DNA of 64,000 bases from Candidatus Pacearchaeota archaeon (GTDB lineage: Archaea; Nanobdellota; Nanobdellia; Pacearchaeales; GW2011-AR1). Each line of letters opens with the position of its first letter. Within the stretch, counting starts at the first letter, position 1. Positions 17,781 through 30,381 of the stretch are shown here, in pieces. A model generated the notes under the pieces. The model searched no databases and was not told the origin of the DNA. It worked only from the letters and a program-made list of their open reading frames with translations. Location: the NCBI GenBank assembly GCA_041649295.1, contig JBAZNI010000001.1:288115-352114 (forward strand). The letters are read 5' to 3'. The position numbers were made by a program, and so were the translations under genes.

Positions 17781-18200
17781 ATGAAAAAGTGGGCTAGGGT
17801 AATTATATCAAATGTTTTTATATTACTTGGTTTGATATTTGTTATATTGTCTCAGAAAGTTGTTATCGGAGCCGTTATTGGACTTGAAAGATTTCACACA
17901 AATATTCTTGGGTTTATTGGCATTGTTTTTATTGGTGTTGGTGTTGGGATGATGTTTGCGAGGAGAAGAGAGGTAAAAACAAAAGACAGGTTAAAAGAGA
18001 TTATTGATAATCGTTCAGTGTTAAGTTATAATGATTTAAAGAAAATTGTTGAAAAGTTAGATTTTGAATTAAAAGAAGGAAGCAGGCATACAGAAGTTTA
18101 CAAAGGAACTCAAAGAGTTACAAGCATACCAAGACATAAAAGAGATCAATCAACTCATACTTACTGGACAATTGTAAAGGAATTATATGCAGCTGCTTAA
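17781..18200 (+). CDS. Membrane-anchored HicA-like protein
   Basis: Two N-terminal TM helices. The C-terminus LSYNDLKKIVEKLDFELKEGSRHTEVYKGTQRVTSIPRHKRDQS..TIVKEL fits the HicA pattern (GSH..vP.H). Confidence 0.55.
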   Translation: MKKWARVIISNVFILLGLIFVILSQKVVIGAVIGLERFHTNILGFIGIVFIGVGVGMMFARRREVKTKDRLKEIIDNRSVLSYNDLKKIVEKLDFELKEGSRHTEVYKGTQRVTSIPRHKRDQSTHTYWTIVKELYAAA

Positions 18201-18475
18201 AGATTGTTAGTATGCTCTCTAAAAAGTTCAGAATATAGTCTATCATGCTTTTCCAAACCTTGTTCATATCTTCTGCATAAAGCAGGGTATTCTGTTCTTA
18301 TTAAATTAACAAATCTAGAGCAATCAACATTTTCTTTATCATCTACATTAATTCCTATTCCTCTTTCTTTTGCACTAGTTAATGCTTCTCTTACAATAAA
18401 CTTTGCATACCTATGCAAACGATTGTGTAATGTCCAAAATTCATCTATTCTATTGCCTATTTCTATTGGGTTCAT
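18197..18475 (-). CDS. Hypothetical protein P6 (92 aa), last gene of the tyrA-linked operon
   Basis: The ATG at 18475 lies 1 nt after the upstream stop (TAAaATG). No family recognised. Confidence 0.5.
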   Translation of the reverse strand: MNPIEIGNRIDEFWTLHNRLHRYAKFIVREALTSAKERGIGINVDDKENVDCSRFVNLIRTEYPALCRRYEQGLEKHDRLYSELFREHTNNL

Positions 18476-18476
18476 T

Positions 18477-19859
18477 TTAATCCTCTGTTTTTGTTGGTTT
18501 GCCAAGATAGTCTAAAACATTCTGTTTATTAATTACTGCTACCCGATCTCCTCTGTTTTGGAGTATTGACTGCAAGTCCTCGTCTATTTCATAAGCTACA
18601 AGATAGCCTAAAACGTCTTTAGGAATTCTCTGATTTTCTGGAAGTGACCTATTTAGTTTTTGAATATTAAACTCCACTGCTGCCTTATATATAGATAACT
18701 GTTGTCCTGCCCTATCTGCATTCTGGTCTCCAGGTGTTCCATCTGTGTTTATCTTGTTTGTTGCTAATTGTTTTACTTCTGAAACAGTGTAAACGCCATT
18801 TTCTTTTCTAAAAAACAAGTCTAATCTTAATCTATTATCTATAAAATGAATTGCTTCTCTATCTCCATCAGACATCTGAAGTTTTTCAACTAAATGTTTG
18901 TATTTATTATAAAACTCTTCAGACGTATTTTCATCTAATTTAAAATCAGCGCATAATAAAGTAAAATCTGGGCCAAAAATTCTATGATAATTTTCAGGAT
19001 CTAACAAATACACGAGCAATTGCTGATGCCCTTTTCCTGCAAATCGCAAATTATCCATTCTTTTTTTTGCACCATAATCGGGGGTAATTACATCTTTTAA
19101 AACTTTTTTTATTTCAGGTATTTTTTCTATCTCTTCTTCTATTCTCCTGTCTGTGTCAGTTAAATGCTGTTCTAATGATTCTTCTAATGTTGCAGGTATT
19201 CTTGTCTGGTGAAGTACCCTACTTGGAAGATGACCATTTACATATCCATCTCTTGAGCTCCATATCTCTCTTATACGGCCTCTTATTGAGCCTATTGATC
19301 TAATAAATCCAGCAGTTTTTAACCTTGTCTCTATTTCTTTTGCTATTCCCCTTGGAAGACCTTTCCCATTATACCCATTATCAATCTTCTCTAATAAACT
19401 TTCTTCAAGAAGTCTATCTTCTTCTGCAGAAAAAATTCTTTTACCATTTCTAGGGATTACTACTGGAGCAAATTTTAAATGAGAGTATTTTGTGTCTATT
19501 TCATGCAATTGTTCCACAATCTGTTCAACTGCCTGATTATTTGCAAAAGTCGTATAACCTAGCCCTGAAACCAAAGTTGTTCTAACTACATCAAATCTTT
19601 TTGAAATTGCTGTATCTCCGATTTCCCTTAATTGTTCTTCAGTTAGATTTCTTTTTTTTCTTCCGCTTAAGGTTTTCCTTTTTTTCTTTTCAACTGGCGT
19701 TTGTTCCTTAGATTTCCTTATATTTGAAACAAGAGAATAAAGTGCATTTAAACTTTGAAACCCAAATTGTTCTGCAATCTGATTAGGATCAGCATCTTCT
19801 CTGTTATATGCTTCAAGTATTTGCTGTTTCTCTTCATCTGTTCTTCTTAATCTTTTCAT
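18477..19859 (-). CDS. Hypothetical protein P5: HTH + Myb/SANT-like segment + C-terminal PD-(D/E)XK-like nuclease core
   Basis: TDEEKQQILEAY..QIAEQFG (HTH), FSAEEDRLLEE..GRIREIW (Myb-like), and RLDLFFRKENGVYTVSEVKQ (D..ExK). Confidence 0.5.
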   Translation of the reverse strand: MKRLRRTDEEKQQILEAYNREDADPNQIAEQFGFQSLNALYSLVSNIRKSKEQTPVEKKKRKTLSGRKKRNLTEEQLREIGDTAISKRFDVVRTTLVSGLGYTTFANNQAVEQIVEQLHEIDTKYSHLKFAPVVIPRNGKRIFSAEEDRLLEESLLEKIDNGYNGKGLPRGIAKEIETRLKTAGFIRSIGSIRGRIREIWSSRDGYVNGHLPSRVLHQTRIPATLEESLEQHLTDTDRRIEEEIEKIPEIKKVLKDVITPDYGAKKRMDNLRFAGKGHQQLLVYLLDPENYHRIFGPDFTLLCADFKLDENTSEEFYNKYKHLVEKLQMSDGDREAIHFIDNRLRLDLFFRKENGVYTVSEVKQLATNKINTDGTPGDQNADRAGQQLSIYKAAVEFNIQKLNRSLPENQRIPKDVLGYLVAYEIDEDLQSILQNRGDRVAVINKQNVLDYLGKPTKTED

Positions 19860-19860
19860 T

Positions 19861-21087
19861 TTAAGCAGCCTCCGCCTTAGGTTTGACTTTAAACCCTTTT
19901 ACATATTTTACTTTCTGGCTAAATTCTCTTCTAAAGTCGTCAAAGTCAGGCATAGAATCTGAATATTTAGAAATAAAATCATATAATCCTTTAACATCTG
20001 TTGCTAAAGCTACTTCTGAACCAGCATAACCAGAGTTATCTACTGATTGCTGTCTGCCAGCAAGATAATTTAATGCCAAAACTTTTTTGTATTCTTCTTG
20101 GAATTGATGTTTTTCTTCATCTGATAAATTATCTAAAATATTTTTATAACTTTTTGCTTCTTCTTTTGAAGGGATGTCTCCTCTTCTTCCATGATATAGT
20201 GTAACTGGATGCCATTCTAAAAATTCTCCTTCAGCTAAAAAGTCTAATCCTCCGTTATTTATGCCTCTGTTTCTTACTTGGAATGTCTCTCCTTCAATAG
20301 TTCTGTATTCTGGAAGATACTTTTCTAACATTAAAGCAACTGCTCCTTCTTGCTGAGATGAAGCATGGAATCTATCTTCAATAAAATAAGAGTTTTTTCT
20401 GTGATTATCTAGATTTTCAATTGCTGTTTTTCTTCTTTGTTCTAGTGTTAAAGCAACTAGTCCAACACCATTTTCCCAATTTCTTTTCCCAATTTCGCTT
20501 AATTGCTCTGGTGTTAAAGCAGCTAGTCCAACACCATTTTCCCAATTTCTTTTTCCCATAACCCTTCCCATTTCTGTTCTTTGCTCGGATGTAAAACTTT
20601 TAAAGGGGTCTCCATGAATCTTTATTCTTTCTAAGGCAATAGCTCTTCTTTGTTCATAAGGGATAGTTGTCCAAAGGTTGCCTCCCCTAACTTGCATACT
20701 TTTTCTCCCATTATTAACACAGTCTTCTCTACTTAAAAGTCGAGATACTGGTCCGTGAAGTTCGTATGATCTGGGTCCTCCTATACTGCCTCCCTTTTTT
20801 CCAGATTTACTTAGATCTTCCTTAGTTAGATTTGCAAGGCCAGCAACATAAGCTTTTTTTCCTCTTTCTGTTGCTATAGCTAATTTCCTATAATCTATTT
20901 CATCTACACTAAGAGATTCATTAATAAAACGATTTATAGTAGTAGTTCCTATTCCTGAAATATCTGCAAGTTGTCCGAATGATGAAAAAGTTTTTATCTT
21001 TCCTTTTCTGTGCGCTTCTATTTCTTCTCTGATTATGTCTATTAGTACTTGCTTATCTTCTTGTCTTGGCTTTATTCCTCTTGGCAT
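19861..21087 (-). CDS. Hypothetical protein P4: short DNA-binding-type repeats + Vsr/DUF559-like endonuclease core
   Basis: Repeats are LTKEDLSKSGKKGG, LSREDCVNNGRK, FTSEQRTEMGRVMGKRNWENG and LTPEQLSEIGKRNWENG. The C-terminus reads SSQQEGAVALML..GGLDFLAEGEFLEWH. The ATG at 21087 lies 1 nt after the upstream stop. Confidence 0.5.
   Translation of the reverse strand: MPRGIKPRQEDKQVLIDIIREEIEAHRKGKIKTFSSFGQLADISGIGTTTINRFINESLSVDEIDYRKLAIATERGKKAYVAGLANLTKEDLSKSGKKGGSIGGPRSYELHGPVSRLLSREDCVNNGRKSMQVRGGNLWTTIPYEQRRAIALERIKIHGDPFKSFTSEQRTEMGRVMGKRNWENGVGLAALTPEQLSEIGKRNWENGVGLVALTLEQRRKTAIENLDNHRKNSYFIEDRFHASSQQEGAVALMLEKYLPEYRTIEGETFQVRNRGINNGGLDFLAEGEFLEWHPVTLYHGRRGDIPSKEEAKSYKNILDNLSDEEKHQFQEEYKKVLALNYLAGRQQSVDNSGYAGSEVALATDVKGLYDFISKYSDSMPDFDDFRREFSQKVKYVKGFKVKPKAEAA
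20445..20558. repeat. Tandem 66-nt (22-codon) near-identical duplication inside P4
   Basis: GTGTTAAAGCA(A/G)CTAGTCCAACACCATTTTCCCAATTTCTTTT.. occurs at 20445 and 20511. It encodes GKRNWENGVGL(A/V)ALT. Confidence 0.85.
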
Positions 21088-21088
21088 C

Positions 21089-22156
21089 TTACTTAACACT
21101 CCAGTCATATTGCTTTAAATCTTGAGTTGCGAAAAAGGTTTTGTCGTGCCCGTTTATTGCTACATATCCCCAAAGGAATGCTTCTTGTTCTGCCTGATTT
21201 AAATGGCGAGTTGCTAAAACTCCTGCTTTTGTTTTATATTCAATTAAAACATTGTTTAGTAATTTCTTGTAAAAGTCAACTGTTTCCTGTGTTGGAAGCG
21301 CAAATGGATTTGCTGCTAAAGGAACTATATTTTTATCCTGATTCCATAAAGTATCAGCTAATTCTAAATATGGTGCAACATCATGCGGACAGAATTGAAT
21401 AACTTTTGATTTTTCAGCTCTGTCTCTTCCTCTGTTTGGAAGATACTTGAATCTTAATTCTCTGTTAAATCTTTTTTCTGGGCAAGTGTGGTCACTATCA
21501 ATATTCTGTGCAATAACATATTTCCAATCATTATCTTCAACTGCAACAGATTCTAAACCAACATCCCATCTTGAGTGTTTTGGTGTTCTTGAAGGAACTT
21601 GGAAAACAAATCTCCCGCCTTCTATTGTTGAGATTTTAGAATCATCATAATCTTTTAGTTTTATTTCTACACCTGGAACCTGATGTGCATATCCAAATAT
21701 TTCCGCTCCATCTAAACAGCTTACTAAAGCGATTTTTCTTGGAATCTGATCTACTGCTCCTTCTGGAGGTCTAGTAATATATCCTGATAAAAATGGTATA
21801 TGCCCTGTTTCTTGATATTGGTTATGCAAGCTATCAAATGCTTCTTGCCTTTGTTTAACTGGAAGTATTTTTTGTTTTCTTAACTGCTCAATTGTTTTTG
21901 CTCTCCTTAGTTTTAACTCTGGAGCATGTTTTTTAAATTTAGAAGGGGTTAGATACTCTTCGGGCAGTATTAAACGAGCAACAACTAAATGAGAATCATA
22001 AGGCATATCTGTAATTCGTGAAACAAGCTTATTAGTCGCCCTAATTTCATTACCTAAATCTCGTATTTCTGCTTCTGTTCTTCTCTTAAAAAAGTCCTTT
22101 TTTTCCATATTTTTACGTATAAAATAGCCTTTATAAGCCTTTCTATATGTTGTCAC
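21089..22156 (-). CDS. Hypothetical protein P3 (355 aa)
   Basis: Long ORF with no recognised motif. An alternative start lies at 22108 (MEKKDFF). Confidence 0.5.
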   Translation of the reverse strand: MTTYRKAYKGYFIRKNMEKKDFFKRRTEAEIRDLGNEIRATNKLVSRITDMPYDSHLVVARLILPEEYLTPSKFKKHAPELKLRRAKTIEQLRKQKILPVKQRQEAFDSLHNQYQETGHIPFLSGYITRPPEGAVDQIPRKIALVSCLDGAEIFGYAHQVPGVEIKLKDYDDSKISTIEGGRFVFQVPSRTPKHSRWDVGLESVAVEDNDWKYVIAQNIDSDHTCPEKRFNRELRFKYLPNRGRDRAEKSKVIQFCPHDVAPYLELADTLWNQDKNIVPLAANPFALPTQETVDFYKKLLNNVLIEYKTKAGVLATRHLNQAEQEAFLWGYVAINGHDKTFFATQDLKQYDWSVK

Positions 22157-22601
22157 TAAGAAGTAAGGGCAAAGAAGAAAAATTTAATTCTTCCTGCTCT
22201 CCAGCAAGTCTAGCAGATCTATACAATTCATAAATGGCATCGGGAAAGTAATAACATTTTTCAGGATTAATGCCATTATCCCTTAATTCTTTCTCTATTT
22301 TCTCTAAGTGCATATTAATTATTCTTAAGCCAACTTCACTATCTGATGTTACATAATAATTTCCACTACACTTAAATAATTCCAAATCATATAATCCGCC
22401 ACTTCTTGTCTCTGATTCATCTCTAAATCTTTCAACTAATTCTAAAGTTTCTCTATGGGCTCTTATTTTATCATATACTTCTACAGCAGTTATTTCTGGG
22501 CTAAAATCTCTTTGAATTCTCGGAAGAGTTTCTTCACAAGCTTTTCCCAATTGTTCTGCTCTATCTTGAGTAATTAAAAAGTGTACATAATGTCCATTCA
22601 T
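22143..22601 (-). CDS. Hypothetical protein P2 (152 aa)
   Basis: GGAGG lies upstream of the ATG at 22601, which is 1 nt after the upstream stop (TAAcATG). Confidence 0.5.
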   Translation of the reverse strand: MNGHYVHFLITQDRAEQLGKACEETLPRIQRDFSPEITAVEVYDKIRAHRETLELVERFRDESETRSGGLYDLELFKCSGNYYVTSDSEVGLRIINMHLEKIEKELRDNGINPEKCYYFPDAIYELYRSARLAGEQEELNFSSLPLLLSDNI

Positions 22602-22602
22602 G

Positions 22603-23037
22603 TTATTTCCTCCTCTCTGATAAATCATGTATTGTAGGATATATTCCAGTGGTTTTGTACAAACAGATAATCTCTGGGTGAGGTATAATTCCAAGTAGAT
22701 TGGCAAAGTCTAGTTCAGCAAAATTTTGGACTCTTCCTCTAGTTCCTTCAGGATGATTTAATCTAGACAAATCAATAATCAATCCGCAATCTTTTCTAGA
22801 AAGTATTTCATCTAATTCTGCAAAATGGATATAAGACTTCAAAAGATAATCTGGAAGTCGCGGACATAATCCAAATCTCAATTTTTTGAGATCCTGGTCA
22901 TGCAAATCATCAGTTACAAATTCTACATTTATTGGATCACAACAAAAAAAGTCTTGTTCAGGAGTTTCCCAAATAGACTTTTCAATTATATGTTTCCCAA
23001 TCTCAGTTCTTGTATCGCAATAAACCAGTGTTTTCAT
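22603..23037 (-). CDS. Hypothetical protein P1 (144 aa)
   Basis: Its ATG overlaps the tyrA TGA (ATGA at 23034-23037). Confidence 0.5.
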   Translation of the reverse strand: MKTLVYCDTRTEIGKHIIEKSIWETPEQDFFCCDPINVEFVTDDLHDQDLKKLRFGLCPRLPDYLLKSYIHFAELDEILSRKDCGLIIDLSRLNHPEGTRGRVQNFAELDFANLLGIIPHPEIICLYKTTGIYPTIHDLSERRK

Positions 23038-24032
23038 TTTAACTCCCCCTCGAGATTATTTAATCCATTTATGAATATCTGCCTTGCTTCTTTAGCAAAA
23101 GGATTCATAATCTGCATATTATTAAATAATGCTGGAGTATCATTCGCAATTATTTCTACAATATCCATTAATTTATCAAAAGTTTTTGTGCTTAATTCAA
23201 CTCTCTTTATACCTGCCTTGTTTAGAGCCTGGCCAATAAAATGAGTTAGTGCTTGAGAAAGGGCCATTTGTTTATCATGTTCTTCAGGAGTTGTTATAGT
23301 TGTTTGAAGTCCGATAAATTCGCAAAATTCTTTTATCATATCAAAGGTTTTATTAGTTGCTCTAACATTACAAAGAGCAATTCTCATTCCATTAATTGAG
23401 TCAGGTGCACTTTGCGGTCCAAATAATGGATGAGTTCCAATTATTTCAATATCCTTTGGTAAAATCTGGTTCATTAATTTACAAGAAAACACCTTTAGAG
23501 AACAAACATCCAACACAATAGTCTCATCTTCTATTTTGTCTTTTATTTTTAGTAATATTTGCTCAAGATTTTCCATAGGAACAGCTAAAATAATAAATCT
23601 ACTTGTCAATATCTCATTTAATGAAACAAATTTAACTCCAAGTTCACCTGCTTGTTCACTTTCATTATTAATATCTGTTACAAATAACTCAATATTATCT
23701 AATTTTGAAAGATGTTTTGCAGCAAGCTTTCCAAAATTTCCAAAACCAATTATTCCTATGCTTATGGTCTTTTTTTGAATATCCTTAGACTCCTTAAGAA
23801 TAGTGTTAAAAATGTTCTTTACATTAAAACTATTTCTGGCATTTTTAGTTTTATCCAAAACTTCTTGTTCTCTAGAGCCATCTAAAACAGGCATATTCGT
23901 TTTTGCTTTAATATCTCCGATAGTTCTTACCATCTCAAGCCTTTGGTCAAGAAGACTAACGAGATTTCCATCTATCTCATCAATCTTTTTTCTTAGCATT
24001 CCAATTTCTTGTGGCAGTGTTATTTGTTTCAT
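23034..24032 (-). CDS. tyrA: Chorismate mutase / prephenate dehydrogenase fusion
   Basis: N-terminal CM-II pattern LRKKIDEIDGNLVSLLDQRLEMVRTIGDIK..GSREQEVL, Rossmann IGIIGFGNFGKLAA, and IGTHPLFGP. Confidence 0.75.
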   Translation of the reverse strand: MKQITLPQEIGMLRKKIDEIDGNLVSLLDQRLEMVRTIGDIKAKTNMPVLDGSREQEVLDKTKNARNSFNVKNIFNTILKESKDIQKKTISIGIIGFGNFGKLAAKHLSKLDNIELFVTDINNESEQAGELGVKFVSLNEILTSRFIILAVPMENLEQILLKIKDKIEDETIVLDVCSLKVFSCKLMNQILPKDIEIIGTHPLFGPQSAPDSINGMRIALCNVRATNKTFDMIKEFCEFIGLQTTITTPEEHDKQMALSQALTHFIGQALNKAGIKRVELSTKTFDKLMDIVEIIANDTPALFNNMQIMNPFAKEARQIFINGLNNLEGELK

Positions 24033-24161: not shown

Positions 24162-24201
24162 TATACCAAAAAAGGTATAATGTTATACCAAAAAAGGTAT
24201 A
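24162..24201. promoter_or_regulatory. Two tandem palindromic sites TATACC-A6-GGTATA (period 22) in the tyrA / MNT divergent intergenic region
   Basis: Located at 24162-24179 and 24184-24201, 26 nt upstream of the MNT-family gene start. Confidence 0.5.
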
Positions 24202-24226
24202 ATACAATAAAATAGGCGTAAAGAAA

Positions 24227-24829
24227 ATGTTAACAAAAAATCAAACAGAAATGCTGGACATGTTTAGGAAAAACATATTCTTAAATGAAAGTATAAGAAA
24301 AATAGCTTTAGTTCTAAATAAACCATACCCCAAAGTCTACGAAGCATTAAAAAAATTTGAAAAAGAAAAAATAGTTCAAATTAAAAAAGTTGGAAGCTCA
24401 AATATTTGTAGTTTAATGCTAAATAAAGAGAGTATTGCTATCTTTTCTATGCTTGACAAACAAGAAGCATTTTCAAAAAAAATTCCCAACATAGATAAGA
24501 TACTTTCATTTAATGAATTCCTTGATGACATTTTAATTGTAAGTGGAAGCTATGCAAAAGGATGTCAAACTAAAAAATCAGATATTGATATAGTTATAAT
24601 CACTAAAGAAGATGCCTATAAAAAACAAGAGTTAATGGAGAATATGGCAATGACCTTCCTGCCAGAATTCCATATCACAGCATTTTCCTATAAGAATTTT
24701 ATCAACATGTTGTTAAATAATGAATTTAATCTCGGGAAAGAAACTTTCAGATTCCACCTTATATTTAGAAATCCTGAAAGATATTATGAATTAATTAAGG
24801 AGGCAATTAAAAATGGTTTCAAAGGTTGA
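24227..24829 (+). CDS. wHTH-fused minimal nucleotidyltransferase (MNT-like)
   Basis: VSGSYAKGCQTKKSDIDIVII motif. Overlaps the HEPN gene. Confidence 0.7.
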   Translation: MLTKNQTEMLDMFRKNIFLNESIRKIALVLNKPYPKVYEALKKFEKEKIVQIKKVGSSNICSLMLNKESIAIFSMLDKQEAFSKKIPNIDKILSFNEFLDDILIVSGSYAKGCQTKKSDIDIVIITKEDAYKKQELMENMAMTFLPEFHITAFSYKNFINMLLNNEFNLGKETFRFHLIFRNPERYYELIKEAIKNGFKG

Positions 24830-25292
24830 ATTATACTTAAAAAGAGCAGACGATGAACTTTTGCTATCAAAGGTAAATTTTAATATGTCTGTAAAACCAG
24901 AAATAAAGCAGTTTTTAAGATTAAATTTAAATCAGACATTTTTTAATGATGTTATTTCCGAAGCATACTATTCTATTTTTTATGCAGCAAAGGCATACCT
25001 TTTAACAAAAGGAATAGAAACTTCTGCTCCAGAAGAGCACAAAAAAACATATAACTATTTTAAAAAATTTGTGAACAAAGGAGTTTTAGATAAAGAACTT
25101 CTTGAGATTTATGATACAGAAGCAGACAAAGCAGAATTTTTATTAAAAATATTTTTTAAAGAAAAGAGCAAGAGAGGCAAATTTGTTTACAATATTAACT
25201 CAGATGCAAATATCCCTGTTGCCTTAAACTCTATCGGCAATGCGAAGAAGTTTGTCGCAAATATAAAATCAGTTATTGAAAAAGAAAAATGA
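24813..25292 (+). CDS. HEPN-domain protein
   Basis: 159 aa helical protein following and overlapping the MNT gene. Contains AYYSIFYAAKAYLL..EEHKKT. Confidence 0.6.
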   Translation: MVSKVELYLKRADDELLLSKVNFNMSVKPEIKQFLRLNLNQTFFNDVISEAYYSIFYAAKAYLLTKGIETSAPEEHKKTYNYFKKFVNKGVLDKELLEIYDTEADKAEFLLKIFFKEKSKRGKFVYNINSDANIPVALNSIGNAKKFVANIKSVIEKEK

Positions 25293-25741
25293 AAGACATA
25301 AAACCAAAGTTAATTGAGTTATTTAAGCAAGGCTACTGCACACCGCAGATTTCAGTAATTGCTAAAAAAATTAAAGAGCCTTCTACAACAATACATTATA
25401 ATATAAAAAGATTAGAGCAAGAAGGAGCGATAAAATCTTACAAAGCTGTTTTTAATTATAAAAAAATAAATGAGGGGCATTGCACTTATATTTTTGTCAA
25501 TTTATCTCCAGAAAATTATGGAAATCCAGAAAAAATAGCAAAAGAAATAGCTAAAGATTCAAGAATTGAAAGTGTGGATGTAGTTACAGGGGGCTATGAG
25601 TTAATAATCAAGTTAAGGACTAAGGATGTAGATGAATATTATGAGGCAATAAAAAATATGGTATCGAAATTTAAATTCACAAAAACAACTTCAGTTACTT
25701 CTTTAAAACAAATTAAAAGCGAGTTTGTTGAGTTAGAATAA
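25289..25741 (+). CDS. Lrp/AsnC-family transcriptional regulator
   Basis: HTH IAKKIKEPSTTIHYNIKRLEQEGAIKSY followed by a RAM-like C-terminal half. Confidence 0.7.
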   Translation: MKDIKPKLIELFKQGYCTPQISVIAKKIKEPSTTIHYNIKRLEQEGAIKSYKAVFNYKKINEGHCTYIFVNLSPENYGNPEKIAKEIAKDSRIESVDVVTGGYELIIKLRTKDVDEYYEAIKNMVSKFKFTKTTSVTSLKQIKSEFVELE

Positions 25742-25908: not shown

Positions 25909-28900
25909 TTAACTGCCCTCTTCCAGCTTCAAACTCACAATCTTGCTAATACCGCTGTTCATGCTGATTCCATAAATAACATTAGCCCCGCTAATAATGC
26001 TGTCGTTGTGGCTTATTACAATATACTGCCCGGATTTCATGTATTTGTGAAGAAGATTAGCTAAAAGTTCTGAGTTTCTTTTATCAAGTGCTGCATCAAT
26101 TTCATCAAGAATATAGAAACAGTAAGGATGATATTCCTGAATTGCAAAAATCAATGAAAGTGCAATAAGTGTTTTTTCTCCGCCTGATAAAGAATTAATG
26201 TCAAAGTATTTTCCTTTTGCAATTCTTATTATAATATCTATTCCCCCTTCAAAAATATCTTCAGGATTCTGGATTTCAAGGAATGCTTTTCCTTTTGTGC
26301 TTAACTGGCTGAAATTCCTCGTGAATAGCTCATTAATTGCAGTAAATGTTTTCATAAAAGTCTTTTTCTTTTTAACATCAATTTCATGTATGATTTTAAG
26401 TATCTCTTCTCTTTCATCTTCCAGCTGTTTGACTTTTTCAGACACCTTCTCATATTCTTCTTTTACAAATTCGTATGTTTCCAAAGCTCTCATGTTTACA
26501 CTGCCTATTCTCATTAAGTCCTGCTCTGATTTCTGAAGTTTTTCTTTAAGAAACTGAATACTTCCAGAAATAAATTCAATTCCTGAAAATTCCCTTAACT
26601 CAAATTCGAAAGATTCTTTTTCAGCACCGACTTTTGCAATTTCAACTTTAAGATTATTTATAACTTCTGTAAATCTCGAAAGAGTGTTTTGCTGGTTTAC
26701 AAGCAACAGATTTTTCTGATTTATTTTTTCCTGTATTTCTGTTCTTTCCTTAAACAGCTTTTCAAATTTTTCAATCATATCATCCAAAGCAGACTGCCTG
26801 TCTCCTAATTTATGCTCGTTTAGTTTCAGATTAGAGTTTAAATTTGACAAATCTTTTTTTATCTCTATTTTGTCTTTGTCGATTCCCTTTATAACAATTC
26901 TTATCCTTTCAATTTCCTGCTCTTTGAACAAAATAGTCCTGTCAATATTTTCATCTGTTCTTGATGATATTTCCTGCAGTTCAAACAGAAGTGTTTTTGA
27001 TTTCTCCTCTATCTTTGAAATATCTTGAAGATTCTTTGCAAGTGATTCCTGTCTTGTTTTTAAGTTTTGGATTTCTATTTTAAAATTCTTTTCTTTAGCC
27101 ATAAGTTTTTTCATAGATTCTCTTTTTTCATTAATAGATTCTATTTTAACAAGCTCAACTTCTCTTTCTGACAATTCGTTTTTTAGGGAATCATCTTTGC
27201 TACCAAGATTTTTTATATTAATTTCAAAATCTTCAATTTCTTTTTTAACTGAATTTAACAGCTCCAAACTTTTTTTGATTTTGTCTTCTGTCGATTTTAA
27301 AACATGAGTTACATGCTCGCTTGTTAATTTGCTCTGGCATAGAGGGCAGATATCAGAAGAAGGTATTTTTGATTTTAGTTTCTGATTTCTTTCTATATCT
27401 GCTTCAATTACAGAAAAAGATTTCTCAGCATTTTTTCTTTCTTCATATAATTTTTCAAGTTGTTTTTTATTTTCTCCAATATCTTTATTTAGCTCTTTTA
27501 TTTTTGCTGTGCATTCTTCTGTTGTCTGGAAAGTAAGTTCTTCTGCCAAAGATTTTATCTGGTTAAAAAGATATCTTGATTCTGTTTCAGCAGAAGTTAA
27601 TTCTCTTTCCTTATCTCTTATCCTGTCTTTAATGAGATTAAATTCTGTCTGCAGAGAATAAACTTTTTCTTTTTTAGATTCAATTTCATCAAGTTCCTGC
27701 TTTTTAGCTTTGATTTCATTCTGTCTTTTAGAAAGTAATGGAGATTCTTTTTTTAATCTATTAAGTTCTTCTTCAGATTCTTTTAAGCTGTGCTCTAATT
27801 CATTTCTTCTAACTTCATTTTCAGCTAGTTTTTTGTCAAAGTTATCTATTCTTGTTCTGTCTTCTGTAACCCTTATATTCAGCATTGTAATTTCATCATT
27901 CAAAGACTCTCTTTCAAAACCTGAAGATTTCTGAACATGCTCATTTATTTCATCTGCTCTTTGTGAAAGAGATTTAATTTCCTGCTCCAATCTTGATATT
28001 TCTGATTTTACTTTTTCCTTGAATTTGGTGTTTTTATCAACTTCTTCTTTTATTTTTTCAATTTCTTTATCTTTTTCATCAAGGTTCTTTTTTATTATTG
28101 ATACTTTGCACTGCTTGACACTTTTTTCAAGTTCTTTAAACCTCAAAGCCTGCTTCCTTTCTTCTTCAAGATTTTTCATATATGCTGTTCTCTCTCTTAA
28201 AACTGCAGAAACTTCTTTTAGTTTTTGGTTTGTTTTTTCAATTTCATGGAGAGATTTCTGTTTTCTCATTTCGTAAATTGAAATTCCTGCAACTTCTTCA
28301 ATAATCTCTCTTCTTTCAATAGGGTGCATTTTAACAAGATGGGCAATTTCTCCCTGAAGAACAATATTAAATCCATTTGGGTCAATTCCTGCATGAGATA
28401 AAAGTTCTAAAATTTCCTGGCGTGTTTTTGTCTCGCCATTTAGCTTGTAAATGCTCGTTCCTTTTCTCCTTACAATTCTTTTAATAGAAACGTCTTTTGA
28501 ATCGATGTTAAACATTTTGTCAGAATTATCAAAAACAATTTCAACACTTGCCTCTTTAGACGGTTTTCTTTCTTTTGTTCCCTGAAAAATAAGATGTGAT
28601 GATTTTTCAGCTCTCAAACTTTTGCTTGACAAACGCCCTAAAACAAAACACAAAGCATCGCTTATATTTGAATTATGCGCGAATATATTATTAGCTACAA
28701 AATTATGATGTTCTTCAACGCACAAATCATAAACCCATTCCCCCCCAGCTATTTCTTGAATATCTATAAGTTCATCCCAAAAGATGTCTGATTGAATTAG
28801 CAGATTTAACCTATTTATATTTTCAGAATTTCCTATAAATAATTGATTAGTCAATAAAGAAAGTCCATTTCTTGAAGGAGTGCATTGATTATAATAATAT

Positions 28901-30381
28901 GAATCTAAACTTGGAAAATCCTGTTTATTTTTCTTAACTGAGATGCCTAACTCGTTTGTGATTATTTTTACTAAATCATTTGCTTCGATTAAATCAACAT
29001 TAGTATTAGATTTTTTATGCAAGTGGGATAATATCCTGTCTTTTTTTCTTTTATGGATTAATTGAATATATTGATTAAATAATGCTAAATTTAAAACTCC
29101 TGAGATAGTTATTGATTTATATTTGCCTTTAAAGTCTTTATATCCTTTTATAATGTCTTTAGTATTAAAAAGAATGCCTAACCTTAGCAAGCAAGTTTCA
29201 ATACTATGACAAAGCAGTTCACTCTTTGTTGTTATTTCAATTACTGGAGATTTTTTTGAGACATATCCATCTCCACAATATAGTCCATTTAATAAGTTTG
29301 ATATTTCTTCCTTAGAAGAGTGTTTTAAAATAATGTTTGAAATCTTTTTATTTTCTGTTTTTGAAGCCATCCCTAATTCCCTTAAAATCTTTTTTAATGG
29401 CTCTGAAAAAATTATTACATCCCAGCAATTTTGTTTATACTCCCGGACTAATGGTTCTTTATGGAAAAGTTTTCTTACAAGATAAACATAATCTTCTACA
29501 ATTTCTCTATCTCCATTTGTAAACCAGATATGGCTTGAATCTCCAAGCCTTCCTTCTGCCAAAAGATATCCAAAAAATCTGGCAAAGTCTGGAGAATTTT
29601 TAAATTCAAATCTTGTATCCTTGCCATTAGCACAAATAGTATTTATATTATTGACTATTTCTATATCTGAAAAACCTGCATACCTAAATATTTTTATAAG
29701 GTTGCAGAAGTGAATTGATTGTTTATCAAGCATCCCTTTAATAATATAATAATTAACTCCTATTTTCTGCGCTAATTCCCTCCAGCTATTTTTTTCTTTT
29801 AATGATTTTAAAATATTAACATATTCTTCTTTATAAGGAATATAAAAATTATCTTCAAGACTAAATTTATCAAGAAGTTCTATAAAATATTTATTTTCAG
29901 GCTCAAAGTTTATTTTTCTCGTAACAGCTATTCTAACCCCTTTTTTTAATTCTTCTGCTTTTGCAGGAACAATTTTATTATTTTTTAATATAAAGAAAGG
30001 ATGATATTTAGTAGATGTAATTTCTCTGCCCGAACGAGTTTTTATTTTTAGCAGTTTTTCTGGAGAAGTTCTCTTTACAAATGCTTTAATGGGTTTTTTT
30101 ACAACTTTTAAAGTATTAAAATCAAGGCATAATACTTCTGTGCCATCGCCTTGAATTAAAAATCCATCTTCAGTTTTTATAGCATTGATTAAACGAGAAT
30201 TAACAATATTTCCAATCTTTTCTATTGTTCCGTCTGATAGCTGGACTAGTGAATTTTCAGTCAGGCACTTACCACTTCCATTTGGGCCAATAATGACATT
30301 AATTCCTGTATCAAATGGGAGCTGTGCTTTTCCTGCAAAACTCTTAAACCCATTTATTGTCAGCTCTTTTACATAACCCAT
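25909..30381 (-). CDS. SMC-headed coiled-coil ATPase with central CxxC hook, interrupted by an intein
   Basis: Head motifs are INGFKSF, GPNGSGK[intein]SNISDALCFVLG, QGEIAHLV..ERREIIEEVAGIS, LSGGEKTLIALSLIFAIQ and ILDEIDAALD. CPLC lies at 27337-27348, the extein midpoint. Confidence 0.85.
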   Translation of the reverse strand: MGYVKELTINGFKSFAGKAQLPFDTGINVIIGPNGSGKCLTENSLVQLSDGTIEKIGNIVNSRLINAIKTEDGFLIQGDGTEVLCLDFNTLKVVKKPIKAFVKRTSPEKLLKIKTRSGREITSTKYHPFFILKNNKIVPAKAEELKKGVRIAVTRKINFEPENKYFIELLDKFSLEDNFYIPYKEEYVNILKSLKEKNSWRELAQKIGVNYYIIKGMLDKQSIHFCNLIKIFRYAGFSDIEIVNNINTICANGKDTRFEFKNSPDFARFFGYLLAEGRLGDSSHIWFTNGDREIVEDYVYLVRKLFHKEPLVREYKQNCWDVIIFSEPLKKILRELGMASKTENKKISNIILKHSSKEEISNLLNGLYCGDGYVSKKSPVIEITTKSELLCHSIETCLLRLGILFNTKDIIKGYKDFKGKYKSITISGVLNLALFNQYIQLIHKRKKDRILSHLHKKSNTNVDLIEANDLVKIITNELGISVKKNKQDFPSLDSYYYNQCTPSRNGLSLLTNQLFIGNSENINRLNLLIQSDIFWDELIDIQEIAGGEWVYDLCVEEHHNFVANNIFAHNSNISDALCFVLGRLSSKSLRAEKSSHLIFQGTKERKPSKEASVEIVFDNSDKMFNIDSKDVSIKRIVRRKGTSIYKLNGETKTRQEILELLSHAGIDPNGFNIVLQGEIAHLVKMHPIERREIIEEVAGISIYEMRKQKSLHEIEKTNQKLKEVSAVLRERTAYMKNLEEERKQALRFKELEKSVKQCKVSIIKKNLDEKDKEIEKIKEEVDKNTKFKEKVKSEISRLEQEIKSLSQRADEINEHVQKSSGFERESLNDEITMLNIRVTEDRTRIDNFDKKLAENEVRRNELEHSLKESEEELNRLKKESPLLSKRQNEIKAKKQELDEIESKKEKVYSLQTEFNLIKDRIRDKERELTSAETESRYLFNQIKSLAEELTFQTTEECTAKIKELNKDIGENKKQLEKLYEERKNAEKSFSVIEADIERNQKLKSKIPSSDICPLCQSKLTSEHVTHVLKSTEDKIKKSLELLNSVKKEIEDFEINIKNLGSKDDSLKNELSEREVELVKIESINEKRESMKKLMAKEKNFKIEIQNLKTRQESLAKNLQDISKIEEKSKTLLFELQEISSRTDENIDRTILFKEQEIERIRIVIKGIDKDKIEIKKDLSNLNSNLKLNEHKLGDRQSALDDMIEKFEKLFKERTEIQEKINQKNLLLVNQQNTLSRFTEVINNLKVEIAKVGAEKESFEFELREFSGIEFISGSIQFLKEKLQKSEQDLMRIGSVNMRALETYEFVKEEYEKVSEKVKQLEDEREEILKIIHEIDVKKKKTFMKTFTAINELFTRNFSQLSTKGKAFLEIQNPEDIFEGGIDIIIRIAKGKYFDINSLSGGEKTLIALSLIFAIQEYHPYCFYILDEIDAALDKRNSELLANLLHKYMKSGQYIVISHNDSIISGANVIYGISMNSGISKIVSLKLEEGS
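28672..30267 (-). mobile_element. 532-aa intein with LAGLIDADG homing-endonuclease domain in the Walker A loop
   Basis: Starts at Cys39 (GSGK|CLTENSLV) and ends ..NIFAHN|S. The LAGLIDADG-like blocks are FFGYLLAEGRL and LLNGLYCGDGYV. Confidence 0.85.

What the first reader, a model, noticed from the sequence alone, without database searches (positions are those of the whole stretch)
18197..24032. tyrA translationally coupled to six unrecognisable genes, two with nuclease-like cores, higher in GC, inside a TA/Abi island
Seven minus-strand genes are packed with coupling-type junctions.
- The chorismate mutase/prephenate dehydrogenase TGA overlaps the next ATG (ATGA at 23034-23037).
- Four later junctions are stop-1nt-ATG: TAAcATG at 22599-22605, TAAgATG at 21085-21091, and TAAaATG at 19857-19863 and 18473-18479.

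I cannot assign any of the six downstream proteins (144, 152, 355, 408, 460 and 92 aa) to a named family. Only pieces are recognisable.
- P5 (18477-19859) has an N-terminal HTH, a Myb/SANT-like FSAEEDRLL...RIREIW segment and a C-terminal LDLFF...VSEVK motif that looks PD-(D/E)XK-like.
- P4 (19861-21087) has short [LF][ST]xE[QD]....G+K repeats reminiscent of NUMOD3/KGG DNA-binding repeats. These are followed by SSQQEG..L...GGLDFLAEGEFLEWH, which resembles Vsr/DUF559-type endonuclease cores.

Hand counts of single 60-nt lines gave 38-43% GC inside the block and 27% in one neighbouring line (30% for one tyrA line). That suggests foreign origin.

The flanks are all conflict systems: a wHTH-NTase-2H cassette, AbiEi/AbiEii, a HicA-like gene and MNT/HEPN. 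A lone tyrA, with no other aromatic amino-acid gene in 64 kb of a reduced-looking archaeal genome, is itself odd. The coupling implies it works with the unknowns rather than in tyrosine synthesis.
Basis: partly seen in the sequence, partly recalled or inferred. Interest (0 to 1): 0.85.

Follow-up and report, generated by a model that had tools for sequence, protein, structure and literature searches.

The report
Mosaic gene string; nucleases docked behind P3
The seven tightly packed genes are not one tyrosine-linked system but two units, the second being a widespread small-archaeon protein of unknown fold followed by DNA-cutting genes that turn up behind it again and again in other genomes.

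Summary
The gene string is real: seven minus-strand genes, and five of six junctions are a 4-nt overlap or stop-1nt-ATG. The six unknowns match no Pfam, NCBIfam, PHROG, PADLOC or PDB family.

The GC claim fails. Block genes have 0.30-0.35 GC against 0.313±0.028 for window genes, and GC3 is at or below average.

The block is a mosaic, not a tyrA operon.
- **Unit 1, tyrA-P1-P2.** A 67%-identical tyrA in another metagenome sits beside the same AsnC regulator and a weak P2 relative. P1 and P3-P6 are absent there.
- **Unit 2, P3-P4-P5-P6.** It starts 34 nt after P2, at a TATA-like box with the same spacing as in P3 relatives.

P3 belongs to a family found in at least 36 DPANN species. Its model is confident (pTM 0.89) but has no PDB match.

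P4 combines an HTH, 22-aa repeats and a possibly Vsr/EDxHD-like core. P5 combines HTH/Myb with a conserved PD-(D/E)xK plus QxxxY core. Both are nuclease-type genes.

Four unrelated nuclease-type families sit 1-2 nt behind P3 in divergent genomes, in mix-and-match fashion. I favour selfish, homing-endonuclease-like docking. A true P3-plus-nuclease conflict system is not excluded.

The parts
25289..25741 (+). AsnC/Lrp-family regulator, conserved divergent neighbour of tyrA
   Evidence: Pfam AsnC_trans_reg. In L053 its 73%-identical orthologue lies about 100 bp from tyrA, divergently.
24227..25292 (+). MNT/HEPN toxin-antitoxin pair inserted between asnC and tyrA
   Evidence: Pfam NTP_transf_2 and HEPN. 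The pair is absent from the asnC-tyrA spacer of L053.
23034..24032 (-). tyrA, bifunctional chorismate mutase / prephenate dehydrogenase, first gene of unit 1
   Evidence: Pfam CM_2 1.2e-17, PDH_N 9.6e-18, PDH_C 2.2e-5, all above cut-off. NCBIfam prephenate dehydrogenase models score 1.7e-37, below their equivalog cut-offs.
22603..23037 (-). P1, 144-aa orphan, ATGA overlap with tyrA
   Evidence: No family hit. Singleton cluster. No relative in the metagenome scan or in any fetched locus. Absent from L053.
22143..22601 (-). P2, 152 aa, weakly conserved companion of tyrA
   Evidence: Weak matches to the two small ORFs coupled to tyrA in L053 (E 3e-4 and 4e-3 pairwise; reciprocal phmmer).
22130..22137 (-). 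TATA-like box CTTATAAA, 21 nt before the P3 ATG (probable promoter of unit 2, leaderless transcript)
   Evidence: Read. The same box at the same spacing precedes P3 homologues in L033, L041/L045, L017, L025 and L016. Inference only; no transcript data.
21089..22108 (-). P3, 339 aa, member of a DPANN-wide family of unknown fold; anchor of unit 2
   Evidence: 18 homologues. 36 species loci. AF2 pLDDT 87.5, pTM 0.89. No PDB structural or sequence match.
19861..21087 (-). P4, 408 aa: N-terminal HTH, 22-aa DNA-binding-type repeats, C-terminal nuclease-like domain
   Evidence: 39 homologues, some with NUMOD3. Weak HTH_3 match. Repeats shared with cyanophage B23 gp294.
20427..20558 (-). 66-nt tandem duplication inside P4 (two 22-aa repeat units GKRNWENGVGLxALTxEQ)
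   Evidence: the repeat finder family D1, 86% identity.
19864..20436 (-). P4 C-terminal domain with invariant E247, D282, E291, H293 and near-invariant D304 (full-length numbering)
   Evidence: AF2 pLDDT 91 with helix-strand-strand-strand core. Conservation counts. Foldseek is not significant; the Vsr-like I-Bth0305I scores E 4.2.
18477..19859 (-). P5, 460 aa: N-terminal HTH/Myb-like region plus C-terminal PD-(D/E)xK nuclease core
   Evidence: phrog_151 transposase HTH 1.6e-4. Weak Myb match. Family of 46 representatives.
18660..19052 (-). P5 nuclease core (residues about 270-400): GHQ, D347, E361-x-K363-Q, Q387-x3-Y391
   Evidence: Alignment blocks. Column counts of 30-34 of 34.
18197..18475 (-). 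P6, 92-aa orphan, last gene of unit 2
   Evidence: No family hit. Weak reciprocal match to the 95-aa gene in the same position of L056.
17781..18200 (+). Convergent membrane protein with weak HicA-like C-terminus that closes the cassette
   Evidence: HicA_toxin 2.8e-4, below cut-off. Homologues lie in the same convergent position in L056/L057 (E 7e-13) and L003. L003's copy in turn matches L060's.

Best explanation
The seven-gene string is a mosaic of two transcription units in a variable, toxin-antitoxin-rich chromosomal slot of a Pacearchaeota genome.

**Unit 1 (tyrA-P1-P2)** is a resident metabolic gene with its AsnC-type regulator. An MNT/HEPN pair has been inserted between them. P2 is a weakly conserved small companion and P1 is a lineage-specific orphan.

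**Unit 2 (P3-P4-P5-P6)** starts at its own TATA-like box.
- P3 is a conserved DPANN protein of unknown, apparently new fold. In most genomes it stands alone among housekeeping genes.
- P4 and P5 are modular site-specific nucleases. DNA is bound by the N-terminal HTH/Myb elements and, in P4, by 22-aa repeats. It is cut by a C-terminal metal-dependent PD-(D/E)xK-type active site.
- In P5 the active site would be D347, E361 and K363, with H278 and Q387/Y391. In P4 it would be E247, D282, E291/H293 and D304.

I infer that P4 and P5 behave as free-standing, homing-endonuclease-like selfish genes. They have lodged directly behind P3 and are expressed by translational coupling to it.

Shown: the split into modules, the family distributions, the conserved motifs and the recurrent adjacency. 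Inferred: nuclease activity, the promoter, and selfish (homing-like) behaviour.
For: **Mosaic**
- tyrA, P1, P2 and P6 have no relatives in about 45 loci carrying P3, P4 or P5 relatives.
- L053 keeps asnC-tyrA-(weak P2 relative) and then CysRS.
- P3 homologues start at the ATG at 22108. A TATA-like box sits 21 nt upstream, as in other loci.
- P3 lacks the GGAG motif that precedes P1, P2, P4, P5 and P6.

**P3 as a resident gene**
- 36 species loci across Woese-, Pace-, Nano-, Parv- and Aenigmatarchaeota.
- Its neighbours are MetRS (about 13 loci), a divergent TrmB regulator (about 12), TGT, a pseudouridine synthase, L15e and Rpb7.

**Nuclease character**
- P5 motif conservation, plus weak DruK, Cas4 and SduA_C hits in relatives.
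- P4 core topology and invariant acidic and His residues.
- Architecture of N-terminal NUMOD/HTH plus a C-terminal nuclease-like domain, as described for the EDxHD enzyme I-Bth0305I (PMC3239194).
- P4-type repeats occur in cyanophage B23 gp294, which lies between gp46 and gp45.

**Docking behind P3**
- P4 relatives follow P3 in L009 and L033.
- P5 relatives follow P3 in L003 and L056.
- A NucS_C-like 670-693 aa family follows P3 in L032 and L060.
- An HTH plus 16 repeats plus DH..N..N protein follows P3 in L014.
- The gaps are 1-2 nt in six of eight cases, against 30-40 nt for P3-MetRS (coordinates).

**Mix and match**
- Closest P3 pairs carry different nucleases (P3 window/L060 identity): window/L060 60%, L009/L014 47%, L033/L032 53%.
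- P5 of the window and L003 are each other's closest relatives (300 bits). Their P3s are near the detection limit (52 bits).
- P4 and P5 relatives also occur without P3 nearby: L049, L050, L052, L054, L058.
- Homing elements are active in this lineage: the window's SMC carries a LAGLIDADG intein that the L009 orthologue lacks.
Against: - No cleavage, target site or empty-site/filled-site polymorphism was shown.
- P4's nuclease fold is not confirmed. Foldseek's best hits are E 0.2-0.4, and Vsr-like I-Bth0305I scores only E 4.2. There is no sequence link to Vsr.
- P5 was not modelled.
- P3 and P4 identities co-vary between the window, L009 and L033 (39/35% and 30/31%). That fits long co-inheritance of a functional pair as well.
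- A shared convergent membrane protein, and possibly a P6-like gene, travel with the cassettes in several lineages. This looks more like a multi-gene system than a lone selfish gene.
- Free-standing homing endonuclease genes are documented mainly in phages. None of these families was found in IMG/VR.
Confidence: 0.45

Rival explanations
1. P3 plus a swappable nuclease, one or two small proteins and the convergent membrane HicA-like protein form a genuine multi-gene conflict or DNA-processing system specific to DPANN archaea. P3 would be the conserved sensor, modifier or partner, and the nuclease the effector. This resembles restriction-modification or defence systems that exchange effectors.
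For: - Junctions between P3 and the nuclease are very tight, 1-2 nt in six of eight lineages (coordinates).
- Four nuclease families occupy the same position.
- P3 and P4 co-diverge.
- A convergent membrane protein family closes the cassette in the window, L003, L056 and L060.
- P6 is weakly similar to the L056 95-aa gene in the same position.
- The cassettes sit beside toxin-antitoxin or Abi genes in the window, L009 and L060.
Against: - In most loci (about 30 of 38) P3 stands alone among translation and tRNA genes, with a divergent TrmB regulator.
- There is no PADLOC hit for any component.
- P4 and P5 relatives also occur without P3 next to them.
- P5 and P3 histories are discordant.
Confidence: 0.3
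2. One reading: all seven genes are one foreign operon in which the tyrA product acts with the six unknowns rather than in tyrosine synthesis.
For: Same strand and tight packing, with an ATGA overlap between tyrA and P1. tyrA is the only aromatic amino-acid gene within about ±10 kb.
Against: - There is no compositional anomaly.
- The 34-nt spacer carries a conserved promoter-like box before P3.
- tyrA is never next to P3, P4 or P5 relatives elsewhere.
- The tyrA relative in L053 lacks P1 and P3-P6 but keeps the AsnC regulator.
Confidence: 0.05
3. P5, named 'transposase' in the NCBI record, and P4 belong to an insertion sequence or transposon.
For: The NCBI name. A weak match of the P5 N-terminus to the HTH of phrog_151 transposase. 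The genomic contexts are variable.
Against: - No terminal inverted or direct repeats bracket P4, P5 or the block.
- There is a single copy in the window.
- No transposase catalytic domain appears in Pfam or NCBIfam.
- The conserved core is PD-(D/E)xK with QxxxY, not DDE, HUH or a recombinase.
Confidence: 0.05
4. The adjacency is inherited synteny in compact genomes and has no special meaning. P4 and P5 are ordinary DNA-binding nucleases, for example repair enzymes.
For: DPANN genomes are compact, and 10 of 42 other same-strand pairs in the window are also tight. AP endonuclease, DUF763 and deoxynucleoside kinase also neighbour P3 in some loci.
Against: Different nuclease families follow closely related P3s, and the same nuclease family follows distantly related P3s. 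This pattern cannot be simple vertical synteny.
Confidence: 0.12

Closest known systems
EDxHD / Vsr-like homing endonucleases (prototype I-Bth0305I, PDB 3R3P; PMC3239194)
   Same: - P4 has the same domain order: an N-terminal HTH/NUMOD-type DNA-binding region and a small C-terminal catalytic domain.
- P4 has a composite of invariant E, D and H plus a near-invariant D on a helix-strand-strand-strand core.
- I-Bth0305I appears among the Foldseek hits.
   Different: - There is no significant sequence or structure match (E 4.2, TM 0.36 on the target).
- P4 is free-standing in an archaeal chromosome, not encoded in an intron or intein.
- It carries about 110 extra helical residues after the core.
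- Its repeats are 22-aa KGG/NUMOD3-like units, not NUMOD2.
Free-standing homing endonuclease genes of T4-like phages (Seg and Mob proteins; 'nuclease genes occupy boundaries of genetic exchange', PMC10448857)
   Same: - Modular DNA-binding plus nuclease proteins are wedged between conserved genes.
- Several unrelated nuclease families occupy the same slot in different genomes.
- Their histories are discordant with the neighbouring gene.
- P4-type repeats occur in a cyanophage gene between gp46 and gp45.
   Different: - The setting is cellular DPANN chromosomes, not phages. No relatives were found in IMG/VR.
- The genes are translationally coupled to the upstream gene.
- No target site or homing event has been shown.
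RecB/Cas4-type PD-(D/E)xK nucleases and Shedu (DUF4263) immune nucleases
   Same: - P5 keeps D...ExK followed by QxxxY. From my own knowledge, not checked against a source, these are hallmark motifs of RecB/Cas4-type nucleases.
- It has a variable N-terminal DNA-binding or sensor region before a conserved C-terminal nuclease, as in type 1 Shedu (bioRxiv 10.1101/2023.08.10.552793).
   Different: - P5 itself matches no Cas4, Shedu or other named model.
- Only single relatives reach weak scores for SduA_C, Cas4 and DruK.
- There is no Cas4-type cysteine cluster.
- The family is tiny, with 46 representatives in 1.84 billion proteins.
Bifunctional TyrA (chorismate mutase / prephenate dehydrogenase, E. 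coli T-protein type)
   Same: The tyrA product has CM_2, PDH_N and PDH_C in that order. It aligns to NCBIfam PRK11199 over residues 8-268.
   Different: - It scores below every NCBIfam equivalog cut-off.
- It sits in a DPANN genome, with no other aromatic pathway gene within about ±10 kb.
- It is coupled to small proteins of unknown function.

Membership tests
PD-(D/E)xK nuclease superfamily (P5) | Conserved D ... (D/E)xK catalytic motif on consecutive strands | tested here: met
   D347 in 32 of 34, E361 in 30 of 34 and K363 in 33 of 34 family members.
PD-(D/E)xK nuclease superfamily (P5) | Restriction-endonuclease-like alpha-beta-beta-beta-alpha-beta fold | not tested
P5 was not modelled.
RecB/Cas4-type subfamily (P5) | QxxxY motif after the ExK strand (taken as a family hallmark from my own knowledge) | tested here: met
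   Q387 in 32 of 34 and Y391 in 30 of 34.
RecB/Cas4-type subfamily (P5) | Significant match to a named model (Cas4, PDDEXK_1, YqaJ, DUF4263/Shedu) | tested here: not met
   P5 has no hit at E up to 5. Relatives give only isolated weak hits: SduA_C 0.006, Cas4 0.0097, DruK 0.0016.
Vsr-like / EDxHD homing endonucleases (P4) | Composite catalytic residues E, D, H, D on a Vsr-like core | tested here: inconclusive
   E247, D282 and H293 are invariant and D304 is kept in 18 of 20. They lie on a helix-strand-strand-strand core. The residue equivalence to I-Bth0305I was not established by superposition.
Vsr-like / EDxHD homing endonucleases (P4) | Detectable sequence or structural similarity to Vsr or I-Bth0305I | tested here: not met
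   Foldseek gives 3r3p E 4.2. The PDB profile search found no Vsr. Pfam has no Vsr or DUF559 hit.
Vsr-like / EDxHD homing endonucleases (P4) | N-terminal NUMOD/HTH DNA-binding region | tested here: inconclusive
   P4 itself has only a weak HTH_3 match (E 0.17). Relatives P0034 and P0039 carry Pfam NUMOD3, and others are named YciG.
Free-standing homing endonuclease gene (behavioural class) | Cleaves the gene-less allele near its own insertion site and is copied in by repair | not testable with these tools
   Needs enzyme assays or population data. Only indirect support was obtained: variable presence, mix-and-match with P3 subfamilies and discordant similarity.
Known anti-phage defence systems (PADLOC-DB 2.0) | Any component matches a defence-system model | tested here: not met
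   Zero hits for all seven proteins. The P5 family gives only scattered weak hits.
Insertion sequence / transposase | Transposase catalytic domain and terminal repeats | tested here: not met
   No such domain was found. No bracketing repeats were found.
Bifunctional TyrA (CM/PDH) | CM_2 plus PDH_N plus PDH_C domains in one chain | tested here: met
   All three are above Pfam cut-offs.
Bifunctional TyrA (CM/PDH) | Reaches an NCBIfam equivalog cut-off | tested here: not met
   The best score is 129.6 bits against a cut-off of 310.

The most novel reading that the evidence does not exclude
P3 is a DPANN-wide protein with a confidently predicted fold that resembles nothing in the PDB. It would be the core of an undescribed archaeal conflict system. 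In that system P3 pairs through translational coupling with interchangeable nuclease effectors: P4 (possibly Vsr-like), P5 (RecB-like), a NucS-like family and an HNH-like protein. The system would also include a small protein and a membrane-anchored HicA-like protein.
Probability: 0.27. Interest if true: 0.8.

Novelty: new variant of a known kind. Interest (0 to 1): 0.58.

Why it matters
DPANN archaea have tiny genomes, and a large share of their genes have no known function.

- **A new protein family.** P3 is present in at least 36 DPANN species, models confidently and has no structural relative in the PDB.
- **A recurrent docking site.** Unrelated nuclease genes repeatedly occupy the position immediately behind P3.
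- **If the nucleases are selfish.** This would be a clear case of free-standing homing-type endonucleases spreading in cellular archaeal chromosomes. It would be a marker of DNA exchange between these episymbionts.
- **If they work with P3.** It would be a new archaeal conflict or DNA-processing system. [quoted passage not shown]
- **A caution.** In compact genomes, tight gene packing alone is weak evidence for shared function.

Tried and rejected
**Family and structure searches**
- Pfam, NCBIfam, PHROGs and PADLOC on all seven proteins found nothing beyond tyrA. Domain fragments also gave nothing.
- PDB sequence profile searches for P3, P4, the P4 C-terminal domain and P5 gave no credible hit.
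- Foldseek of P3 against the PDB gave a best E of 0.8. The P4 C-terminal domain gave nothing significant against the PDB or BFVD.
- hhalign of the P4 family against the P5 family showed no relation.

**Collection scans**
- IMG/VR scans for P3, P4 and P5 relatives found none. One scan failed because no block was conserved enough.
- tblastn against GenBank phages found nothing for P5. For P4 only the repeat region matched.
- The metagenome scan for P1 found nothing.
- Cluster look-ups of tyrA, P1, P2 and P6 returned singletons.

**Other checks**
- A search for repeats bracketing a mobile element found none.
- No tRNA gene lies near the block that could serve as an integration site; the two tRNAs are at 35.9 and 51.3 kb.
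- Links between the small proteins stayed weak: P2 with the L003 129-aa or L056 209-aa genes, and P1 with anything.
- Foreign origin by GC was rejected.
- The last contig look-up (P0008) ended right after P3 and was uninformative.

**Not attempted**
- A Pfam scan of all 68 window ORFs for other aromatic-pathway genes.
- A structure prediction for P5.

Full report
**Source and layout.** The window comes from a Candidatus Pacearchaeota MAG, on contigs of 480 kb (ENA) and 565 kb (NCBI).
- tyrA, 23034-24032
- P1, 22603-23037
- P2, 22143-22601
- P3, 21089-22108/22156
- P4, 19861-21087
- P5, 18477-19859
- P6, 18197-18475

**Junctions.** They read exactly as described.
- They are more than chance. 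Five of six block junctions have a gap of at most 1 nt, against 10 of 42 other same-strand pairs in the window. My binomial estimate from those counts is about 0.004.
- The stop-1nt-ATG form occurs only in the block.
- P1, P2, P4, P5 and P6 each have a GGAG-type motif 7-18 nt upstream.

**Composition.** The GC argument does not hold.
- 1-kb windows in the block are 0.31-0.35 GC, while unrelated parts of the window reach 0.386.
- Per-gene GC is 0.30-0.346 against 0.313±0.028 for 68 window genes.
- Third-position GC, the component most sensitive to foreign origin, is 0.16-0.22 against a mean of 0.216.

**Family searches.** tyrA is a bona fide CM_2 + PDH_N + PDH_C protein, although it falls below NCBIfam equivalog cut-offs. 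P1-P6 match nothing in Pfam, NCBIfam, PHROGs or PADLOC. Profiles of P3, P4 and P5 match no PDB sequence.

**The block is not conserved as a block.**
- tyrA, P1, P2 and P6 have no relatives in any of about 45 loci that carry P3, P4 or P5 relatives.
- P1 has no relative in the metagenome scan.
- The only tyrA relative found (L053, 67% identity) lies about 100 bp from an orthologous AsnC regulator, divergently.
- In L053 tyrA is followed, with the same ATGA overlap, by two small ORFs with weak similarity to the two halves of P2. A convergent CysRS comes next.
- In the window an MNT/HEPN pair has been inserted between asnC and tyrA, and P1 lies between tyrA and P2.
- tyrA therefore looks like a resident, regulator-linked gene with a small companion. 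It does not look like part of a foreign seven-gene system.

**P2/P3 is the seam.**
- P3 homologues align from the ATG at 22108, with N-terminus MxKKxFF. This leaves a 34-nt spacer.
- The spacer contains CTTATAAA ending 21 nt before the ATG.
- The same box at the same spacing (21-23 nt) precedes P3 homologues in L033, L041/L045, L017, L025 and L016.
- This geometry fits an archaeal TATA box driving a leaderless transcript (established knowledge). P3 also lacks the GGAG motif of the internal genes.
- I infer that P3 starts a second unit, P3-P4-P5-P6.

**P3.**
- A word-indexed search found 18 homologues. A single-pattern scan of GTDB species genomes found 36 loci in Woese-, Pace-, Nano-, Parv- and Aenigmatarchaeota.
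- The AlphaFold2 model is confident (pLDDT 87.5, pTM 0.89). Foldseek finds nothing in the PDB: best E is 0.8 and TM about 0.12.
- In most loci P3 stands alone among housekeeping genes. MetRS lies downstream in about 13 loci and a divergent TrmB-type regulator in about 12.
- Elsewhere the neighbours are TGT, a pseudouridine synthase, L15e, Rpb7, DUF763, a deoxynucleoside kinase or an AP-endonuclease-like protein.
- A conserved palindrome, TTGTGGTAA-N-TCACCACA, lies between TrmB and P3 in several Woesearchaeota loci. This suggests regulated expression.

**P4.**
- 39 homologues were found. Some carry Pfam NUMOD3 and others are named YciG (KGG repeats).
- The N-terminal part has a weak HTH.
- It has 22-aa repeats, including a 66-nt tandem duplication at 20427-20558.
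- The repeats are shared with gp294 of T4-like cyanophage B23, a hypothetical gene between gp46 and gp45.
- The C-terminal 190 residues model with pLDDT 91. The core is helix (invariant E247), strand, strand (invariant D282), strand (invariant E291-W-H293), followed by near-invariant D304.
- This composite and the domain order resemble the EDxHD/Vsr-like homing endonuclease I-Bth0305I (PMC3239194).
- Foldseek gives no significant match. 3r3p scores E 4.2; the best PDB hit is E 0.38; the best BFVD hit is E 0.21, with several 'endonuclease-like' phage proteins at E 0.4-3.
- The nuclease assignment of P4 is plausible but unproven.

**P5.**
- An exhaustive profile search of 1.84 billion representatives found only 46 relatives.
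- The family conserves GHQ (H278 in 34/34), D347 (32/34), E361-x-K363-Q (30, 33 and 29 of 34) and Q387-x3-Y391 (32 and 30 of 34).
- That is a PD-(D/E)xK core with the QxxxY motif. I take D...ExK plus QxxxY as hallmarks of RecB/Cas4-type nucleases from my own knowledge.
- Its N-terminus is HTH/Myb-like. Relatives show NUMOD3, other HTH types and isolated weak SduA_C, Cas4 or DruK hits.
- No named family is reached. The NCBI label 'transposase' rests on the HTH only.
- No terminal repeats bracket the genes.

**Recurrent docking behind P3.** Nuclease-type genes of four unrelated families lie immediately downstream of P3, on the same strand:
- P4 relatives in L009 and L033
- P5 relatives in L003 and L056
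- a NucS_C-like PD-(D/E)xK family of 670-693 aa in L032 and L060
- an HTH plus sixteen 16-aa repeats plus DH..N..N (HNH-like, Pfam only E 0.86) protein in L014

The gaps are 1-2 nt in six of these eight cases. P3-MetRS gaps are 30-40 nt.

**Mix and match.**
- The closest P3 pairs carry different nucleases: window/L060 60%; L009/L014 47% and L033/L032 53%.
- The same nuclease family follows distantly related P3s.
- P5 of the window and of L003 are each other's closest known relatives (40%, 300 bits). Their P3s are barely alignable (24%, 52 bits).
- P4 and P5 relatives also occur away from P3, in L049, L050, L052, L054 and L058.
- None of the three families was found in IMG/VR.

**Context.**
- The window and L009 are collinear: primase, AP endonuclease, surface-layer-like gene, then SMC and RNase HII. 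The slot between the surface-layer gene and SMC is variable.
- In L009 that slot holds P3-P4 in inverted orientation plus a DUF2283 pair. In the window it holds Abi and toxin-antitoxin cassettes plus both units.
- The window's SMC carries a LAGLIDADG intein that L009's lacks.

**Interpretation.**
- The split into two units and the independent distributions are well supported; I put this at about 0.8.
- For P4 and P5 I favour selfish, homing-endonuclease-like genes that dock behind a conserved gene and ride its expression.
- The reasons are their modular DNA-binding-plus-nuclease architecture, the variable presence, the several families in one slot, the discordant histories, and P3's otherwise housekeeping-like, TrmB-linked context.

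**The main rival** is a real P3-plus-nuclease system. Three observations support it:
- the extreme tightness of the coupling;
- the concordant P3/P4 divergence;
- a convergent membrane protein family that closes the cassette in the window (with a weak HicA-like C-terminus), L003, L056 and L060, together with a possible P6 counterpart in L056.

I could not separate these two readings with the tools at hand.

**Limits.**
- There are no transcript or enzyme data.
- P5 was not modelled.
- P3 prevalence is a lower bound, because it comes from one peptide pattern.
- Context sampling for P4 and P5 is small (six and five distinct contexts).
- The 'lone tyrA' statement was checked only within about ±10 kb.

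Noticed in passing
window 25909-30381 (minus strand): The SMC gene (1490 aa) carries an intein with a LAGLIDADG homing endonuclease (Pfam Intein_splicing, LAGLIDADG_3). The orthologous SMC in the collinear locus L009 is 944 aa and has no intein hit.
   Followed up: partly
window 24162-24203: Two perfect tandem copies of a 20-nt unit, TATACCAAAAAAGGTATAAT, which is itself palindromic (TATACC-N6-GGTATA). They lie between tyrA and the MNT/HEPN pair, close to the MNT start, and are probably an operator.
   Followed up: no
L036, L039, L044, L027, L046, L012, L030 (70 nt upstream of the P3 homologue): A conserved palindrome, TTGTGGTAA-N5-7-TCACCACA, lies between the divergent TrmB-type regulator gene and P3 in Woesearchaeota loci. 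It is a probable TrmB operator and implies that P3 is a regulated gene.
   Followed up: no
L014 8985-10178: The gene directly after P3 encodes an HTH, about sixteen tandem 16-aa repeats (EYQKHLAKEKGFENIN) and a C-terminal DH...N...N motif that looks HNH-like. Pfam HNH_4 reaches only E 0.86.
   Followed up: partly
L032 9065-11077 and L060 1060-3141: A 670-693 aa family has an N-terminal NucS_C-like PD-(D/E)xK domain and a long unknown C-terminal region. It sits 1-2 nt after P3 in two Pacearchaeota lineages. A relative of its C-terminal part lies 2.5 kb from P3 in L012 (6363-7466).
   Followed up: partly
window 17781-18200; L056 4119-4553; L003 10646-11383; L060 3892-4473: A family of small membrane proteins lies convergent to the end of the P3-nuclease cassette in four lineages. 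The window and L056 copies have a weak HicA-toxin-like C-terminus.
   Followed up: partly
L053 733-1727: The tyrA relative is split into a chorismate mutase ORF (733-1002) and a prephenate dehydrogenase ORF (987-1727) that overlap by 16 nt. This is either a real split or a frameshift or assembly error.
   Followed up: no
L062 1392-2477 (Synechococcus phage B23 gp294): A hypothetical phage protein between gp46 and gp45 is built from the same roughly 22-aa repeats as P4 (34% identity over 165 aa). It has no Pfam domain.
   Followed up: partly
alignment A2 (P4 family), C-termini: Nearly all P4 relatives end in the dipeptide VA or AA after a variable lysine-rich tail. This is an unexplained conserved C-terminal signature.
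   Followed up: no
L003 9705-10649: In L003 the P3/P5-like cassette is followed, again with a stop-1nt-ATG junction, by an RtcB RNA ligase gene.
   Followed up: no
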